Below, one piece after another: positions 54,381 through 61,138 of a DNA stretch of 64,000 nucleotides. The notes below the pieces were generated by a model. It was not told the origin of the DNA. It ran no database searches and saw only the letters and a program-made list of their open reading frames with translations. A program made the position numbers and the translations under genes. The stretch is taken from contig CAVTBK010000001.1 in assembly GCA_963732935.1 (NCBI GenBank), positions 497,624-561,623 on the forward strand. The letters are read 5' to 3'. The DNA is from an uncultured Acidobacteriota bacterium (GTDB lineage Bacteria; Acidobacteriota; Vicinamibacteria; Fen-336). How positions within the stretch are numbered: the first letter of the stretch is position 1; each line of letters opens with the position of its first letter.

Positions 54381-56198
54381 CTAGGCCCCCGCCCCGCCCC
54401 GCCCGGCCATCCTCTCGTAGAAGGGCAGCTGTCTCAGCCCCCGCCACTTCTCGGGCAGGGCGTAGGCCGGGTTGGGCTGCTCCGCGCAAACGCCGCAGCG
54501 GATGCAGCCTTGCAGCTCCGGGCAGTGCGGGGAGAGGCGCCCCTGGCGGCTCCTCTCCAGCTCCTTCCAGAAGTAGGCCTTCTCCACCCCGTTGTCGACC
54601 AGGTCCCAGGGCAGCGTCTCGGCGAAGGCACGCTGCCGGAAGAGGTAGAAGGCGGGATCGAGACCCTTCTCGCGGAGCGCACGCTTGAGGGGCAGCTCCT
54701 CGAGGACGGCCAGCTCCAGCGCGTCGGCGACGCGCCGGTCGCCGAGCGCCAGCACCGACTGGGCCGCGCCGGTGCGCGCGCTCTTGCAGATCGCCTCCAC
54801 GTTGGGCATGCGGGCGAAGGCCTTGCGCAGGTACTGAAGCTTGTGGTCCGTCTGCTTCGGGTCCTCCATCGGCAGCCACTGGAAGGGCGTGCCCGGCTTC
54901 GGCACGAAGGGGTTCACCGAGGGGTGGATGCGCCCGACCCGGCCGCGGCCGCGGGCGACGGCGAGCATCCGCTCGCGGATGGCGCTGGTCAGCTCCACGA
55001 TCGCCTCGACGTCGGCGTGCTCTTCGTAGGGGAGCCCGACCATGTAGTAGAGCTTGAGGTTCTGGATGCCCTTCTCGAAGATCCAGCTGGCGCGGTCGAG
55101 GATCTCGGCATTGGTGAACTGCTTGTTCAGCACGCGGCGCATGCGATCGGAGCCGCACTCCGGTGCCAGGGTCAGGCCCTCGACGCCCGTGTCGACCAGC
55201 TTGAAGACGAACTCCGGCGTCAGGTCGTCGAGCCGCAGCGAGGCGACCGAGACCTGGTAGCCCATCCCCGCCAGGTCGTCGACGATGCCCTCGATCTCCG
55301 GGTGGTCGCAGACCGCCGTCGAGACGAGGCCGATCTTGCCCGTCGCCCGCCGCACCTCGCGCGCGCGGGCGACCAGCTCCGCCCGCGAGAAGCCGCGTAC
55401 CGGGAGATAGTTGTACCCGGCCCAGCAGAAGCGGCACATGCAGGGGCAGCCGCGCGAGATCTCGACCAGGTACTTCATCGACATCTCGGTGTGGGGGGTG
55501 AGCACGATCGACTGCGGGAAGCCCATGGCCCCCGGCCAGCCGCGCTGGCGGCGGATTCTCCCGGGCCCGTCGTAGCGGGCCACCGTCCCGTCGCCGTGGT
55601 AGTGCACGTGGTACTGGGAGGGGAGATAGAAGCCGTCCCGCGGCTTGAGCTCGAGCATCCCCCGACGCGGATCGCTCGCGCCCATCAGGGCGTCCATCAG
55701 GCGGGGCACCAGCGCCTCGGCCTCGCCCACCGCCACCAGGTCCGCGAAAGGCGCGAGCGGCTCGGGGTTCAGGAAAGTGGCGGCCCCGCCCAGGATCACG
55801 AGCGGGTCGCGCGGGCCGCGGTCGCGGGCCCGCAACGGGATCCCCGCCAGCCGCAGCACGCGCAGCACGTGCAGGTAGTCGTTCTCGAAGGAGACCGAGA
55901 AGGCGATCGCGTCGAAGTCCCGAAGCGGCGTCCCGGTCTCGAAGCTCGGCAGCGGCCGGCCGGTCCGCAGCAGCTCGGCCGCGTCCTCGTCGTCGGGCAG
56001 GAAGGCGCGTTCGCAGACGACGTCGGGGGTCGCGTTCAGCAGCCGATAGACCGCCTGGAAGCCGAGGTTCGACATCCCGACGTAGTAGAGGTTCGGCCAG
56101 ACGAGCGCCACCCGGAAAGAGCCGCGCCGCGGCACCTCTTCCAGCCACACCTCGTCCCGGCGCAGCCGTTCGTGACGTTCCTGCAGCTTGAGGGACAA
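54381..56198 (-). CDS. B12-binding-domain radical SAM protein (TIGR03960-like)
   Basis: N-terminal B12-binding-like fold (RVALVWPNLYYVGMSNLGFQ). Cys motif CPCMCRFC (CxxxCxxC). Confidence 0.8.
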   Translation of the reverse strand: MSLKLQERHERLRRDEVWLEEVPRRGSFRVALVWPNLYYVGMSNLGFQAVYRLLNATPDVVCERAFLPDDEDAAELLRTGRPLPSFETGTPLRDFDAIAFSVSFENDYLHVLRVLRLAGIPLRARDRGPRDPLVILGGAATFLNPEPLAPFADLVAVGEAEALVPRLMDALMGASDPRRGMLELKPRDGFYLPSQYHVHYHGDGTVARYDGPGRIRRQRGWPGAMGFPQSIVLTPHTEMSMKYLVEISRGCPCMCRFCWAGYNYLPVRGFSRAELVARAREVRRATGKIGLVSTAVCDHPEIEGIVDDLAGMGYQVSVASLRLDDLTPEFVFKLVDTGVEGLTLAPECGSDRMRRVLNKQFTNAEILDRASWIFEKGIQNLKLYYMVGLPYEEHADVEAIVELTSAIRERMLAVARGRGRVGRIHPSVNPFVPKPGTPFQWLPMEDPKQTDHKLQYLRKAFARMPNVEAICKSARTGAAQSVLALGDRRVADALELAVLEELPLKRALREKGLDPAFYLFRQRAFAETLPWDLVDNGVEKAYFWKELERSRQGRLSPHCPELQGCIRCGVCAEQPNPAYALPEKWRGLRQLPFYERMAGRGGAGA

Positions 56199-56307: not shown

Positions 56308-56523
56308 TCACGCGGCCGAGTTGCCGGCCCCTCCTGGTTTGGCCGCGACCTTCAGGCGTTCCAGGTTGACGCTGCCCGGGATGAAGGCTTCCAGCCAGCC
56401 GCCGCACATGCAGCGGAAGCGTCTCGGCGCCTCGGTCTCCGCGCCCGGGTTCGCCGAAGCGCCCGAGATCAGGTACTCCCGCCCGCAGCTCGGGCAACTC
56501 GCTTCGCGTGTGAACGAGGCCAC
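56308..56523 (-). CDS. Small Cys4 zinc-ribbon protein immediately downstream of ftsZ
   Basis: GTG start 1 nt after ftsZ stop. CPSCG ... CMCGG. Confidence 0.45.
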   Translation of the reverse strand: MASFTREASCPSCGREYLISGASANPGAETEAPRRFRCMCGGWLEAFIPGSVNLERLKVAAKPGGAGNSAA

Positions 56524-56524
56524 G

Positions 56525-57715
56525 CTACTCGCCCCCCAGGTCGCCCTTGAGGTCGCCGCCCTTGCGACGCAGGAAGGCGGGGACGTCGAGGTCGAAGCGG
56601 GCCCCGCCGCTGGCGGCCTTCGGGTTCGGCGTCTTGCGGTAGAAGTCGCCGCCCGCCGCGGCGGCCTTCGCCTGGGGCGTCGACTGGTAGTTGCTGAAGT
56701 CGACGGGCGTCGCGGTGGCCTTCTTGAAGCCGGTCGCGATCACGGTCACCTTCACGGCGTTGCCCATCTGCTCGTCGGTGACGATGCCGTAGATGACGTT
56801 GGCGTCGGGATCGGCCACCTTGGTGATGAGAGCCGTCGCCTCGGAGGCCTCGATCAGGGACAGGTCGGGGCCGCCGGTGATGTTGACGATGACGCCCTTG
56901 GCGCCCTCGATCGAGGAGTCTTCGAGCAGAGGATTCGAGATCGCGCGCTGGGCGGCCTCGGCAGCCCGGTTCTCGCCCTGGCCGATCCCGGTGCCCATCA
57001 CCGCCTGGCCCATGCCGCGCATCACCGCCCGCACGTCGGCGAAGTCGAGGTTGATCTGGCCGGGCACGGTGATGATGTCGGAGATGCCCTGCACGGCCTG
57101 GCGCAGGACGTCGTCGGCCACCCGGAAGGCCTCGGTGACCGGCGTGTTGCGCGCCACGGAGTCGAGCAGCCGGTCGTTCGGGATCGCGATCACGGAGTCG
57201 ACGCAGTCGCGCAGCGATGCGAGCCCGTCGTGGGCCTGCGCCATCCGTCGCTTGCCCTCGAGCGAGAAGGGCAGCGTCACGACGGCGACGCTCAGCACGT
57301 TGCCGCTCTCGCCTCCCAGCTGGCTGGCGATCGAGGCGACCACCGGTGCGGCACCGGTGCCGGTGCCACCCCCGAGGCCCGCCGTGATGAAGACCATGTC
57401 GGAGCCCTCGAGGGCGTCGCAGATCTTCTCGGTGTCCTCGACGGCGGCCTGGCGGCCGACGTCGGGGTTGGCGCCCGCGCCCAGGCCCTTGGTGAGCTTG
57501 GCGCCGATCTGGATCTTGACCGGCGCCCGGTTGGCGCGCAGCGCCTGCAGGTCGGTGTTGACGGCGATGAACTCGATCCCCTGCAGTCCCGAGGCGATCA
57601 TGCGGCTGATCGCGTTTCCCCCGCCCCCACCCACGCCCACCACCTTGATGCGGGCGCCGCGGACCTCCTCGTCGGCGAACTGGATTCGGCCTGGACGGTC
57701 GATCTCTTTGGTCAT
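56525..57715 (-). CDS. ftsZ: Cell division protein FtsZ
   Basis: [27 protein letters not shown] tubulin signature. Confidence 0.95.
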
Positions 57716-57924
57716 GCTCGCTCAATCCCCTGGGAACTACCCGCCATGAAACCGCAGTGGAGGCAGATGCGCTTGGAGTCGTACTCGACGACGGTCGAGC
57801 CGCAGATGAGGCAGGGCAGCTCGCCGGCGCTGCGGACGAGAAAGGGCCCGCGACGGGCGCGGGTGACACGCGGGTCGGCGACGGGCAACGGCGGGAGCGC
57901 GACGCCCTCGACCTTCTTGTCCAT
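57712..57924 (-). CDS. Small Cys4 zinc-ribbon protein between ftsA and ftsZ
   Basis: Strong RBS GGAGGAGGGGAG before ATG 57924. Stop overlaps ftsZ ATG (ATGA). CLICG ... CLHCG. Confidence 0.6.
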
Positions 57925-57935
57925 CTCCCCTCCTC

Positions 57936-59183
57936 CTAGAAAAAGTCGCTCAACCAGCCAATCAAGCGCCCGGTGACCCGACCGAAGGTCCCCGTCGCCG
58001 CCTGCCGCGTGGCGCCGATGCCGCGTCCCACGCGGTTGCGGTAGCCGGACTGCACGAGACCCACCGCCGTCGAGTAGACGGGGCTCGCCACCACGTCCAC
58101 GAGCCCGCCGATCCCGGCCGGGGTCCCGCGCCGCACCGGCATGTCGAAGATCTGTTCCGCGATCTCGGGGAGGCCCTCCAGGATCGCGCCTCCGCCGGTC
58201 AGCACGACGCCCGAGTTCAGGCTCCTCTCGAAGCCGGCGCGCCGGATCTCGGTCAGCACCAGCTGGCAGACCTCCTCGGCGCGCGCCTGCAGCACGTCGC
58301 CGAGGACCTGGCGGGCCATGATCCGGGGCTTGCGGCCGCCCACGCTCGGGACCTCGATCGAGTCCTCCTCGGGGATCATCGAGGTGAGCGCGCAGCCGTT
58401 CTTCTTCTTGATCTTCTCGGCCTCGTTGACGGGCGTCCGCAGGGCGACCGCCACGTCGTTGGTGAAGTGCTCGCCGCCGACCTGCAGGACCGCCGTGTGC
58501 CAGAGGGCGCCCTTCTCGAAGATGGCGAGGTCGGTGGTGCCGCCGCCCACGTCCACGATCGCGACGCCCAGCTCCTTCTCGTCCGGGGTCAGGCAGGTCT
58601 CGGCGGCGGCGATCTGGGTGAGCACGGTGTCGGCCACCTCGAGCCCGGCCCGGTTGACGCAGGTGACGGTGTTCTGGGTGGCGGTGGTCGAGCAGGTGAT
58701 GACGTGGACGTTCACCTCCAGGCGGGTCCCGGTCATCCCGGTCGGGTCCCCGATCCCGTCCTGGTCGTCGACCACGAACTCCTGCGGGAGCACGTGCAGG
58801 ATCTCGCGGTCGAGCGGGATCGAGACGGCCTTGGCGGCGTCGATCACCCGGCGCACGTCCTCCTTCTCGATCACCCGGTTCTTGCTGGAGACGGCGATCA
58901 CGCCGCGCGAGTTGAAGCCCTTGATGTGGGTGCCGGCGACGCCGACGTAGGCCGAGCCGATCTCGACCCCGGCCATCAGCTCGGCCTCCTCGATCACGCG
59001 CTTGATCGCGTCGACGGTGGCCTCCAGGTTGATGACGACGCCCTTGCGGAGGCCTCGGGACTCGGTCTGGCCGATGCCGATCACGTCCAGGCGACCCTCG
59101 TCGGTGATCTCGGCGACGATCGCGCAGATCTTGTGGGTCCCGACGTCCAGGCCGACGATGTAGCGTTCCTTCTTCTTAGCCAG
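57936..59183 (-). CDS. ftsA: Cell division protein FtsA, apparently initiating at a non-canonical CTG
   Basis: The conserved N-terminus ERYIVGLDVGTHKICAIV lies in-frame upstream of the first GTG (59084) and directly after an in-frame TAG (also the ftsQ stop). AGGAGG sits 6 nt before CTG 59183. Confidence 0.75.
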   Translation of the reverse strand: MAKKKERYIVGLDVGTHKICAIVAEITDEGRLDVIGIGQTESRGLRKGVVINLEATVDAIKRVIEEAELMAGVEIGSAYVGVAGTHIKGFNSRGVIAVSSKNRVIEKEDVRRVIDAAKAVSIPLDREILHVLPQEFVVDDQDGIGDPTGMTGTRLEVNVHVITCSTTATQNTVTCVNRAGLEVADTVLTQIAAAETCLTPDEKELGVAIVDVGGGTTDLAIFEKGALWHTAVLQVGGEHFTNDVAVALRTPVNEAEKIKKKNGCALTSMIPEEDSIEVPSVGGRKPRIMARQVLGDVLQARAEEVCQLVLTEIRRAGFERSLNSGVVLTGGGAILEGLPEIAEQIFDMPVRRGTPAGIGGLVDVVASPVYSTAVGLVQSGYRNRVGRGIGATRQAATGTFGRVTGRLIGWLSDFF

Positions 59184-59192
59184 ATGCGCCTC

Positions 59193-60233
59193 CTACTGTC
59201 TCTGCCGCGGCGCGGGCACGACGAACGCGACCCGGTCGCTGGTACCCAAGAGCGGCGCGCCCGCCTCGACGCTCGCCGGACGTGCGTGGCCGCCCCGGAC
59301 CGGCGCCGGTCTCGGCACCTGGGCGCCGGGCGGGGAGATCGCGGCCTGCGCCGCGTCGGCGTCCCCGTGGGCCCCCTCCGCGGTCGGGGCCGGGCGCCTC
59401 GCGTAGATGCGCCCGCGATAGCGCAGGTCGAACAGCTGCGCGTCCGGCACGCGCTCGGCGAGCTCCCCGCGCAGGCTCAGGAAGGTGAGCAGGCGCTGGC
59501 GGTAGGGGGGATCGCCGAAGAGGAGCGTCTCTCCGGCCCCCCGCAGCACCACCCGCAGGTCGCCGGAGGGCTGGACGAAGACCTCCGAGACCTCGCTCCC
59601 CAGCTCCGCCAGGTCCGCGAGCAGCTGCGCGGCCCGCCGCGCGCGCTCGCGGCGGGATTCCTCCTCCACCCCCAGCAGCCCGCGCACGATCGGCAGGTCG
59701 AAGCTGCCCGTGCGCGGCCCGTAGATCTCGATCAACCCGCCGTCCGCGTCCATCAGGTAGAGGCGGTCGAGCTCCGCGAGCGCCAGCGGCACGCGCTCGT
59801 GGATCTCGATGCACAGCGTGTCCGGAAGCCGTCGGGTGACGATCGCCTCGGCGACCCAGGGCGAGGCGCGCAGGCGTTCGGTGAGGGCCGCGATGTCGAG
59901 GGTGAGCAGGTTCTCGCCGAGCGCGGGCCCGGTCAGCTCCCGCACCTCGCCCTCGGAGAGGAAGTGGTTGCCGTGCACCTCGACCTGGGCGACGCGCAGG
60001 CGCTCGCTCGCGAAGACGCGCTGCCAGCCCAGCCAGACGGAGATGAGGGCGACCAGCCCGATCGCGGCCGCCTGGAGGGCGAACAGGAGGCGCGCGGTCA
60101 GCCCTCGCCGGCGCGGGCGGGGCCGGCTTCGGGCGCGGCGGCGCAGGAACGGAGACTCCTCGAGCCCCGTGTCCAAGAGGACGTTCGCCAGGTCCTCGGG
60201 CGGCGGGCCGACCGGCAGTCCCCTGCGGGTCAT
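59193..60233 (-). CDS. ftsQ: Cell division protein FtsQ (POTRA)
   Basis: TM LLFALQAAAIGLVALISVWL. POTRA VEVHGNHFLSEGEV. ATGA overlap with murB. Confidence 0.8.
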   Translation of the reverse strand: MTRRGLPVGPPPEDLANVLLDTGLEESPFLRRRARSRPRPRRRGLTARLLFALQAAAIGLVALISVWLGWQRVFASERLRVAQVEVHGNHFLSEGEVRELTGPALGENLLTLDIAALTERLRASPWVAEAIVTRRLPDTLCIEIHERVPLALAELDRLYLMDADGGLIEIYGPRTGSFDLPIVRGLLGVEEESRRERARRAAQLLADLAELGSEVSEVFVQPSGDLRVVLRGAGETLLFGDPPYRQRLLTFLSLRGELAERVPDAQLFDLRYRGRIYARRPAPTAEGAHGDADAAQAAISPPGAQVPRPAPVRGGHARPASVEAGAPLLGTSDRVAFVVPAPRQRQ

Positions 60234-61138
60234 GGCCGCGGCCTCCACACCTTCACCTCCAGCTGGAGGTCGAGGCCCGTCTCGGCGAGCACACGCTCGT
60301 GCACGAGCTCGAGCAGCCCCAGGACGTCCTCCGCCTTGGCGCCCCCCTCGTTCACCACGAAGTTGGCGTGCTTCGGGCTCACGACGGCCGCGCCACGGCG
60401 GGTCCCCTTGAGCCCCAGATCGTCGATCAGCCGGCCCGCCGACTTCTGTTCCGGGTTCTTGAAGACGCAGCCGGCGTTGCGGCCGCCGGGCTGGCTGAGG
60501 GCGCGCTGGCTCGCCAGCTCCCGGGTCTCCTCGCCCAGCAGCTCCGGGTCGTCGGCTCGCAGCTCGAAGCCGATCTCGGCGACCGCCGCGCCCTCGGGGA
60601 TCGACGAGCCGCGGTAGTGGAAGCGCCAGCCCTCGGGCGGGCTCATCGGCTCGCCTCCGCCGTCGAAGACGACGACCTCGCGCATGACGTCGCTGATCGA
60701 GAAGCCGTAGGCCCCGGCGTTCATCACGGCCGCCCCGCCCAGCGAGCCCGGGATGCCGACCGCGCTCTCCAGCCCGCGCCAGCCTGCCCGGCAGCAGGCG
60801 ACCGCGGTGCGGATCAGGTTCGCTCCGGCCTCGGCGCGGGTGTGCCCGTCCTCGCCGATGGCGATCGAACGCAGCCGCTCCGTGTTCACGACCAGCTCGT
60901 CGAGGCCCTCGTCGACGACCACCAGGTTCGAGCCCCCGCCGAGCACGCGGTGCGGCACCTCGAGCTCGGCGCGCAGGCGCAGGGTCCGGCGCAGCTCCTC
61001 GCTGCTGCGCGGGAAGGCCATCACCGCGGCCGGTCCGCCGACGCCCATGGTGGTGTGGCGCGAGAGGGGCTCTTCGCGGCGGTACGGGATCGCCGCTTCG
61101 TCGAGTGCCGCCGCCATTCGCGGGTCCATGTCAGGCAC
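60230..61138 (-). CDS. murB: UDP-N-acetylenolpyruvoylglucosamine reductase
   Basis: FAD-binding GGGSNLVV; C-terminal MurB domain. Confidence 0.9.

What the first reader, a model, noticed from the sequence alone, without database searches (positions are those of the whole stretch)
56308..57924. Two Cys4 zinc-ribbon micro-ORFs bracket ftsZ inside an otherwise canonical dcw cluster
Between ftsA and ftsZ lies a 70-aa ORF with a very strong RBS (GGAGGAGGGGAG) right after the ftsA stop. Its stop overlaps the ftsZ ATG (ATGA), and it carries CLICG...CLHCG. Directly after ftsZ, 1 nt past its stop, a 71-aa ORF carries CPSCG...CMCGG. Insertions between ftsA and ftsZ are rare, and translational coupling to ftsZ suggests co-expression. 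These could be small FtsZ-associated zinc-finger proteins not yet described.
Basis: seen in the sequence. Interest (0 to 1): 0.7.

Follow-up and report, generated by a model that had tools for sequence, protein, structure and literature searches.

The report
Two zinc-ribbon microproteins flanking ftsZ
Two real, conserved ~70-residue zinc-ribbon genes sit on either side of the cell-division gene ftsZ in a soil Acidobacteriota lineage (Vicinamibacteria); they belong to no described family and are candidate lineage-specific division factors, but no function has been shown.

Summary
On the minus strand the order is ftsA, an 11-nt Shine-Dalgarno (ribosome-binding site, SD) spacer, ORF1 (70 aa, 57712-57924), ftsZ (ATGA overlap), a 1-nt gap, ORF2 (71 aa, 56308-56523), then a radical-SAM gene.

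Both ORFs are genuine protein-coding genes:
- pN/pS in the called frame is 0.36 for ORF1 (0.17 in its zinc ribbon) and 0.48 for ORF2. Shifted frames give more than 1.
- All four core Cys are invariant in 127 unique ORF1 sequences. In ORF2 they are present in 70-71 of 71.

In 80 metagenome loci selected by FtsZ similarity alone, ORF1 lies between ftsA and ftsZ in 67 of 67 assessable loci. ORF2 follows ftsZ in only 32 of 71. The ftsA-ORF1-ftsZ order persists down to about 68% FtsZ identity.

Neither ORF matches Pfam, NCBIfam, PHROGs, PDB sequences or the searched literature. Public metagenome annotations call them "hypothetical protein".

Best reading: these are translationally coupled, lineage-specific accessory proteins of the FtsA/FtsZ module. 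ORF1 is fixed in the lineage and ORF2 is dispensable. The division role rests only on synteny and coupling. An ORF1-like subfamily outside dcw clusters weakens it. The window's ATGA overlap and the loss of two extra Cys are peculiar to this genome and its nearest relatives.

The parts
57936..59183 (-). ftsA (415 aa if it starts at the CTG at 59183; the longest ATG/GTG/TTG ORF gives only 382 aa, starting at 59084)
   Evidence: FtsA and SHS2_FTSA domains. The C-terminus ends ...GRLIGWLSDFF. The frame stays open back to the ftsQ stop, and CTG sits where relatives have TTG, after an AGGAGG. FtsA is about 92% identical across related loci.
57925..57935 (-). Shine-Dalgarno spacer GAGGAGGGGAG between the ftsA stop (TAG, 57936-57938) and the ORF1 ATG
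   Evidence: Read directly from the sequence. In relatives the ftsA stop to ORF1 start gap is mostly 9-15 nt, and 88 of 95 loci have an SD-like motif there.
57712..57924 (-). ORF1: 70-aa microprotein with an N-terminal K-x-EG-x-A-[LF]-PP-[LV]-P-V motif, a variable Arg-rich linker, and a C-terminal zinc ribbon (C38, C41, C54, C57)
   Evidence: Homologs: 67 clusters from the single-sequence search and 503 from the profile search. Present in 67 of 67 FtsZ-selected loci. pN/pS is 0.36 overall and 0.17 in the ribbon, against 1.3-2.0 in shifted frames. The four Cys are invariant in 127 unique sequences. The AF2 model has a disordered N-terminus and C-terminal beta hairpins, pLDDT 63.
56525..57715 (-). 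ftsZ (396 aa); its ATG overlaps the ORF1 stop (ATGA)
   Evidence: Tubulin and FtsZ_C domains. The C-terminal peptide [11 protein letters not shown] is present.
56308..56523 (-). ORF2: 71-aa all-beta zinc-ribbon microprotein (C10, C13, C38, C40) with a conserved NPG-x-ETE-x-P loop and an F-x-PGSVN motif; GTG start 1 nt after the ftsZ stop
   Evidence: 32 homolog clusters. Present in 32 of 71 FtsZ-selected loci, always directly after ftsZ with a gap of -4 to +7 nt. pN/pS in the core is 0.48, against 1.2-1.8 in shifted frames. The Cys are invariant. The AF2 model has pLDDT 80 and five strands.
54381..56198 (-). B12-binding radical-SAM gene (TIGR03960-like), the usual next gene after ftsZ or ORF2 in this lineage; listed as context only
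   Evidence: Pfam Radical_SAM_N2 and Radical_SAM; TIGR03960 at 378 bits, below its 462 cutoff. Found downstream in most related loci.

Best explanation
ORF1 and ORF2 are two unrelated, genuine, expressed-as-protein microgenes. Each encodes a single zinc-ribbon domain, and both are embedded in the ftsA-ftsZ transcription and translation unit of Vicinamibacteria-type Acidobacteriota.

Shown here:
- Both are protein-coding and under purifying selection.
- ORF1 is a fixed insertion between ftsA and ftsZ across the lineage, down to about 68% FtsZ identity.
- ORF2 was added after ftsZ in one sub-lineage and has been lost several times.
- The four genes are packed so tightly that ribosomes finishing one gene can start the next. 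The spacers are 9-15 nt carrying an SD, 2-9 nt or an overlap, and -4 to +7 nt. A GAGGGG that could act as the SD for ftsZ lies inside the last codons of ORF1 (...S-E-G-I).

Inferred:
- ORF1 is made together with FtsA and FtsZ and acts as a small soluble accessory factor of the FtsA/FtsZ module.
- Its invariant zinc ribbon would be the binding module, and the conserved proline-rich N-terminal peptide a second contact.
- ORF2 would be a dispensable modulator of the same module.
- Which partner is bound (FtsZ, FtsA or another protein) and the sign of the effect are unknown.
For: Coding status:
- The called frame gives pN/pS of 0.36 for ORF1 (0.17 in the ribbon) and 0.48 for ORF2. Both shifted frames give 1.2-2.0.
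- Third codon positions vary most, and GC3 is 0.81 and 0.93 against GC2 of 0.56-0.57.
- The core Cys are invariant in 127 unique ORF1 sequences and present in 70-71 of 71 ORF2 sequences.

Position:
- An unbiased FtsZ-only metagenome scan gave ORF1 in 67 of 67 and ORF2 in 32 of 71 assessable loci.
- Genome scan: 19 species-level genomes were recovered, and 18 of them show the dcw context.
- Divergent members P0165 and P0180 still sit between ftsA and ftsZ, where FtsZ is about 64-68% identical to the window's.

Coupling geometry and SD motifs.

Composition is uniform at about 0.70 G+C, so there is no sign of a foreign insertion. No Rfam family and no convincing internal terminator were found.

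Precedent: in Haloferax the zinc-ribbon protein CdpC binds FtsZ1 through a C4 zinc ribbon, and mutating the zinc ligands abolishes the interaction (bioRxiv 10.64898/2026.07.16.738847).
Against: - No experiment or interaction prediction links either protein to FtsZ or FtsA. The function rests on gene order alone.
- An ORF1-like subfamily with the same N-terminal motif and ribbon lies outside dcw clusters. It sits in contigs of 48-55% G+C, next to an RNase_H_2-type exonuclease gene; one contig is labelled Saccharibacteria. The fold and motif are therefore not tied to ftsZ.
- ORF2 is absent from more than half of the relatives, including secondary losses inside its own sub-lineage.
- Both evolve much faster than FtsA and FtsZ: pN is 0.17-0.25 against 0.04-0.07.
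- The ORF1 model is low-confidence, pLDDT 63.
- Most ORF1 proteins carry six Cys with CX3CX2C and CX2CX5C spacings. An Fe-S or redox role cannot be excluded.
Confidence: 0.5

Rival explanations
1. Hitch-hiker microproteins. ORF1 and ORF2 are real zinc-ribbon proteins whose job has nothing to do with division, for example metal or redox sensing, or nucleic-acid or ribosome binding. They merely exploit a strongly and constitutively expressed operon.
For: - ORF1-like genes occur outside dcw in another lineage.
- More distant relatives of the ribbon resemble the HVO_2523 zinc-finger microproteins, and one sits next to ECF sigma and anti-sigma genes.
- ORF2 is frequently lost.
- Six Cys in most ORF1 proteins could suit a redox or Fe-S role.
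Against: - ORF1 is in exactly the same slot in 67 of 67 loci, and in lineages down to about 68% FtsZ identity, while flanking genes downstream of ftsZ vary.
- Every ORF2 detected in the fetched loci lies directly after ftsZ. Those loci cover only a few kb around ftsZ, so copies elsewhere in the genomes were not excluded.
Confidence: 0.3
2. Translational-coupling device. ORF1 exists mainly so that its translation controls how often ribosomes start on ftsZ, setting the FtsA:FtsZ ratio. The peptide itself would have little or no function in trans.
For: - ORF1 stops 2-9 nt before, or overlapping, the ftsZ ATG.
- A GAGGGG that could serve as the ftsZ SD lies within the last codons of ORF1.
- A strong SD precedes ORF1.
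Against: - A pure spacer ORF would not keep pN/pS at 0.17 over a 33-residue ribbon, four invariant Cys in 127 sequences and a conserved N-terminal motif.
- Homologs keep these features where no ftsZ follows.
- In two divergent loci the gap to ftsZ is 73-145 nt, so coupling is lost while the protein is kept.
Confidence: 0.12
3. Chance ORFs in G+C-rich intergenic DNA, or a conserved non-coding regulatory region read as protein.
For: Spurious long ORFs abound here: 42 of at least 40 aa in 7.5 kb, including a 551-aa ORF antisense to ftsZ.
Against: - Frame-specific purifying selection, codon-position periodicity and synonymous codon variation under conserved residues.
- No frame disruption across the roughly 70 distinct ORF1 coding sequences aligned. 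Some loci were excluded by length or stop filters, and several of those come from MAGs whose ftsA and ftsZ are also fragmented.
- No Rfam hit.
Confidence: 0.02

Closest known systems
CdpC of Haloferax volcanii (archaeal zinc-ribbon membrane anchor of FtsZ1; bioRxiv 10.64898/2026.07.16.738847)
   Same: A fast-evolving, lineage-restricted protein that uses a C4 zinc ribbon to bind FtsZ. It shows that this fold can be a Z-ring adaptor.
   Different: CdpC is archaeal. It has two ribbons, an N-terminal amphipathic helix and a long disordered linker. ORF1 and ORF2 have one ribbon each and no predicted membrane helix. No sequence comparison was made, and FtsZ binding by ORF1 or ORF2 is untested.
HVO_2523-family zinc-finger microproteins (NCBIfam NF041914)
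   Same: Stand-alone zinc-ribbon proteins of about 30-70 aa. Distant relatives of the ORF1 ribbon (...HCK..C..CG..RDCSDP) score 19-30 bits against this model.
   Different: All scores are below the 60-bit cutoff. ORF1 itself and the typical member P0021 give no hit to this model. The one context examined is ECF sigma and anti-sigma genes, not dcw.
Small bacterial FtsZ/FtsA modulators encoded near division genes (ZapA, SepF, MciZ, SulA and similar; from general knowledge)
   Same: Small cytoplasmic proteins that act by binding FtsZ or FtsA. Several are lineage-specific and some are encoded in or next to the dcw cluster.
   Different: There is no sequence similarity to any Pfam or NCBIfam family of such proteins. 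To my knowledge none of them is a zinc ribbon and none lies between ftsA and ftsZ.
Ribosomal zinc ribbons bL33 and bL32
   Different: The scores are not significant. This is fold-level resemblance only.

Membership tests
C4 zinc-ribbon fold | Two Cys-pair knuckles, each at the turn of a beta hairpin, conserved across homologs | tested here: met
   ORF1 C38, C41, C54 and C57 are invariant in 127 of 127 sequences. ORF2 C10 and C13 are present in 70 of 71, and C38 and C40 in 71 of 71. The models place the knuckles between strands. The ORF2 second knuckle is CxC.
C4 zinc-ribbon fold | Actually binds zinc | not testable with these tools
   This needs metal analysis of purified protein. Most ORF1 proteins have two further Cys (C50 in 116 of 127, C63 in 125 of 127), so another metal or an Fe-S cluster is possible.
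HVO_2523 zinc-finger family (NF041914) | Score at or above the curated cutoff of 60 bits | tested here: not met
   ORF1 and P0021 give no hit to this model. Only distant relatives score, at 19-30 bits.
Known FtsZ/FtsA-binding protein families (Pfam and NCBIfam models) | Significant match to a curated model | tested here: not met
   Only sub-threshold generic zinc-finger matches, with E of 0.03 or worse. No PDB sequence match. No PHROGs match.
dcw-cluster gene (operational definition: conserved position inside the cluster) | Same position in relatives chosen without reference to the gene itself | tested here: met
   ORF1 is present in 67 of 67 FtsZ-selected loci. ORF2 is present in only 32 of 71, so ORF1 meets the criterion and ORF2 meets it only for one sub-lineage.
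Z-ring-associated or divisome protein | Physical interaction with FtsZ or FtsA, mid-cell localisation, or a division phenotype | not testable with these tools
   No complex prediction or experiment was available. Only synteny and coupling support this.
CdpC-like FtsZ anchor | Two zinc ribbons joined by a long disordered linker, plus an N-terminal amphipathic membrane helix | tested here: not met
   Each ORF has one ribbon. ORF1 has only a short Arg-rich helix at residues 18-23, and ORF2 is all-beta. Sequence similarity to CdpC was not tested.

The most novel reading that the evidence does not exclude
ORF1 is an unrecognised core divisome component of Vicinamibacteria. It would be a zinc-ribbon (or six-Cys, metal- or redox-responsive) adaptor made in step with FtsA and FtsZ, binding FtsZ directly. 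A possible docking site is the lineage-specific N-terminal extension of FtsZ or the conserved FYRKTPN linker motif. That would make it a bacterial counterpart of the archaeal zinc-ribbon Z-ring factor CdpC, with ORF2 as an optional second modulator.
Probability: 0.25. Interest if true: 0.7.

Novelty: new variant of a known kind. Interest (0 to 1): 0.5.

Why it matters
The ftsA-ftsZ junction is one of the most conserved gene adjacencies in bacteria. A protein-coding gene fixed in that junction across a major soil lineage, and translationally coupled on both sides, is a concrete candidate for a lineage-specific division factor in a phylum whose cell biology is almost unstudied. If it binds FtsZ or FtsA, it would add a zinc-ribbon class to the bacterial Z-ring modulators, matching the recent archaeal CdpC finding. 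It would also give two new small-protein families a function. If it does not, it remains a clean example of how conserved microproteins stay labelled "hypothetical" in metagenome annotation.

Tried and rejected
1. Paralogy of ORF1 and ORF2: the profile-profile comparison gave 2.8% probability, so they are unrelated.
2. Known families: Pfam, NCBIfam, PHROGs and PDB sequence profiles gave nothing significant.
4. Non-coding alternatives: there was no Rfam match, no promoter-like site, and only weak terminator-like hairpins inside coding sequence.
5. Mobile or foreign origin: composition is uniform, and tblastn found nothing in plasmids or phages.
6. Names and taxonomy of divergent homologs through cluster look-ups: no names were returned.
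7. Literature: no paper describes a gene between ftsA and ftsZ of this kind, or cell division in Vicinamibacteria.
8. Correlation of ORF2 presence with the FtsZ termini: it follows the sub-lineage split (RIQFAEEE/FLRRKG against RITFADDE/FLRKQG), so it is phylogeny rather than evidence of contact.
9. The profile search for ORF1 (503 hits) lists only the best 120, so the distant tail could not be read there. The exhaustive representative search covered it instead.

Full report
**1. What is in the window**

[quoted passage not shown] Searches give the following layout:
- ftsQ (59193-60248).
- ftsA (57936 to about 59183).
- An 11-nt spacer, GAGGAGGGGAG.
- ORF1 (57712-57924, 70 aa, ATG start).
- ftsZ (56525-57715, 396 aa). 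Its ATG overlaps the ORF1 TGA as ATGA.
- One spacer base.
- ORF2 (56308-56523, 71 aa, GTG start).
- About 110 nt further on, a B12-binding radical-SAM gene (54381-56198).

Pfam confirms FtsA, FtsZ and the radical-SAM protein. ORF1 carries C38-x2-C41 and C54-x2-C57. ORF2 carries C10-x2-C13 and C38-x-C40. The window is 72% G+C, and one search lists 42 ORFs of at least 40 aa in 7.5 kb. The mere existence of these ORFs carries no weight.

**2. Are they genes?**

Single-sequence searches found 67 homolog clusters for ORF1 and 32 for ORF2, at 57-83% identity apart from the window's own ORF2 at 100%. Where a name was given, it was "hypothetical protein". A profile search found 503 clusters for ORF1. 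The window's own copies are already called as proteins in public collections.

Codon-level tests on DNA from related loci:
- In the called frame, pN/pS is 0.36 for ORF1 and 0.48 for the ORF2 core.
- Within ORF1, pN/pS is 0.17 for the ribbon (residues 35-67), 0.53 for the N-terminal motif and 0.60 for the linker.
- The same alignments read in the two shifted frames give 0.9-2.0.
- Third positions vary most. GC3 is 0.81 and 0.93 against GC2 of 0.56-0.57, and conserved residues are encoded by several synonymous codons.
- In 127 unique ORF1 sequences, C38, C41, C54 and C57 are invariant. In 71 unique ORF2 sequences, all four Cys are invariant, with one gap.

There is no Rfam match and no convincing promoter or terminator inside the unit. 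Both ORFs are real protein-coding genes under purifying selection. They evolve faster than FtsA and FtsZ, whose pN/pS is 0.11 and 0.20.

**3. Conservation of position**

A genome scan with the ORF1 profile returned 19 species-level genomes, all Acidobacteriota or Vicinamibacteria MAGs except one outlier labelled Saccharibacteria. Eighteen of them show ftsA-ORF1-ftsZ, and most show ORF2 and then the radical-SAM gene. Contigs found through individual homologs show the same order.

That set was selected through ORF1, so I also ran an unbiased test. A metagenome scan used the window's FtsZ alone and returned 80 loci at 81-89% FtsZ identity. Results:
- ORF1 is present directly upstream of ftsZ in 67 of 67 loci with enough flank.
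- ORF2 is present directly downstream in 32 of 71.

Where ORF2 is missing, ftsZ is followed directly by the radical-SAM gene, a PAP2-like membrane protein or a glycosyltransferase. ORF2 presence follows a sub-lineage defined by the FtsZ termini, with several losses inside that sub-lineage.

Very divergent ORF1 members still sit between ftsA and ftsZ. They include P0165, which has lost the N-terminal motif, and P0180, which matches at E of about 1e-6. In the P0165 locus FtsZ is 68% and FtsA 70% identical to the window's. In the P0180 locus only 28 FtsZ residues are available, at 64% identity.

**4. Coupling geometry (95 loci)**

| Junction | Usual spacing | Note |
|---|---|---|
| ftsA stop to ORF1 start | 9-15 nt | SD-like motif in 88 of 95 loci |
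| ORF1 stop to ftsZ start | 2-9 nt | the window's 4-nt overlap is the only one |
| ftsZ stop to ORF2 start | -4 to +7 nt | |

Most ORF1 proteins end ...CSEGI-stop. The window and its nearest relatives read through to ...GIERA. A GAGGGG sequence that could serve as the ftsZ SD lies inside the S-E-G-I codons, so part of the C-terminal conservation may serve ftsZ translation. This SD role is an inference.

**5. What the proteins look like**

ORF1 and ORF2 are not paralogs.

ORF1:
- A conserved N-terminal peptide, K-x-EG-x-A-[FL]-PP-[LV]-P-V, predicted to be disordered.
- A variable Arg-rich linker.
- A nearly invariant ribbon, ELPCEMCG..VVAYHCKRICL.CGFMTGCSEGI.
- Most members have six Cys. C50 is present in 116 of 127 and C63 in 125 of 127.
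- The window protein is the only one of 127 lacking both, with Ser at each position.

ORF2:
- A confident five-strand all-beta ribbon, pLDDT 80.
- A conserved acidic NPG-x-ETE-x-P loop and an F-x-PGSVN motif.

Neither protein has a predicted membrane segment. Median pI is about 7.6 for both families.

**6. Family limits**

An exhaustive HMM search of 1.84 billion representatives found only 78 proteins at E of 1e-3 or better, and 21 at 1e-10 or better. Nearly all are stand-alone proteins of 40-100 aa.

Two facts temper the ftsZ link:
- A subfamily that keeps both the N-terminal motif and the ribbon lies in contigs of 48-55% G+C, one labelled Saccharibacteria. It sits near an RNase_H_2-type exonuclease and a PD-(D/E)XK-like gene, not near ftsZ. 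Its members are P0167, P0182 and the gene in L027.
- More distant ribbons (...HCK..C..CG..RDCSDP) weakly resemble the HVO_2523 zinc-finger family, below its cutoff. One of them lies next to ECF sigma and anti-sigma genes.

**7. Interpretation**

Shown:
- These are two orphan zinc-ribbon microprotein families.
- ORF1 is fixed between ftsA and ftsZ throughout a Vicinamibacteria-type lineage.
- ORF2 is an optional add-on after ftsZ.
- All four genes are arranged for coupled translation.

Inferred: the two proteins act on the FtsA/FtsZ module. I rate a division-related role at about 0.5. The rivals and my ratings are:
- Unrelated hitch-hiker proteins, 0.3.
- A pure coupling ORF, 0.12. The strong amino-acid constraint argues against it, as do homologs without a following ftsZ.
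- Chance ORFs, 0.02.

The only precedent found for a zinc ribbon binding FtsZ is archaeal CdpC. No paper describing these genes was found.

**8. Verdict**

The conservation test was passed, clearly for ORF1 and partially for ORF2. The FtsZ association is untested.
- Novelty: a new variant of a known kind, namely lineage-specific small accessory proteins and zinc-ribbon microproteins, here placed in the ftsA-ftsZ junction.
- Interest is moderate. The finding is a well-defined, testable candidate, but it sits in a little-studied lineage and has no functional evidence.

Noticed in passing
window 59181-59183 (minus strand): ftsA appears to start at a CTG codon. The frame is open from the ftsQ stop, an AGGAGG precedes it, and relatives have TTG at the homologous codon, giving a 415-aa FtsA. 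The longest ATG/GTG/TTG ORF would lack the first 33 residues, including the DVGT phosphate-binding motif.
   Followed up: partly
window 56525-57715 (FtsZ residues about 1-22 and about 350-365) and loci L001-L107: FtsZ of this lineage has a conserved N-terminal extension (..[12 protein letters not shown]..) before the IKVVGVGG start of the GTPase domain. It also has a conserved FYRKTPN.KAA motif in the C-terminal linker, upstream of the usual [11 protein letters not shown] peptide. Either could be a lineage-specific docking site.
   Followed up: partly
window 57712-57924: The window's ORF1 is atypical for its family. It is the only one of 127 unique sequences lacking both extra cysteines (C50 and C63 are Ser). 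It and its nearest relatives carry a 3-residue ERA extension, which creates the ATGA overlap with ftsZ.
   Followed up: yes
window 54381-56198 and most related loci: A B12-binding radical-SAM gene (TIGR03960-like, 378 bits, below its 462 cutoff) is the usual next gene after ftsZ or ORF2 on the same strand. This holds even in the distant locus L111, which suggests a conserved link to the division operon.
   Followed up: no
L027 4001-4222, L110 4001-4204, L114 2322-2537: An ORF1-like subfamily occurs in contigs of 48-55% G+C, one labelled Candidatus Saccharibacteria. It keeps the EG-x-x-x-PP-x-P N-terminal motif and the ribbon. It lies near an RNase_H_2/PolB-exo-like gene and a hypothetical protein of about 250 aa that looks like a PD-(D/E)XK nuclease.
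   Followed up: partly
window 56321-57976 (+) and 56469-57869 (-): Very long spurious ORFs (551 aa antisense to ftsZ, 466 aa in another frame) show how unreliable ORF length is as evidence in this 72% G+C genome.
   Followed up: yes
L001, L009, L010, L012, L018: Several long-read MAG contigs show fragmented ftsA or ftsZ matches and frameshifted or extended ORF2 reading frames. These are most likely assembly indel errors rather than pseudogenes.
   Followed up: no
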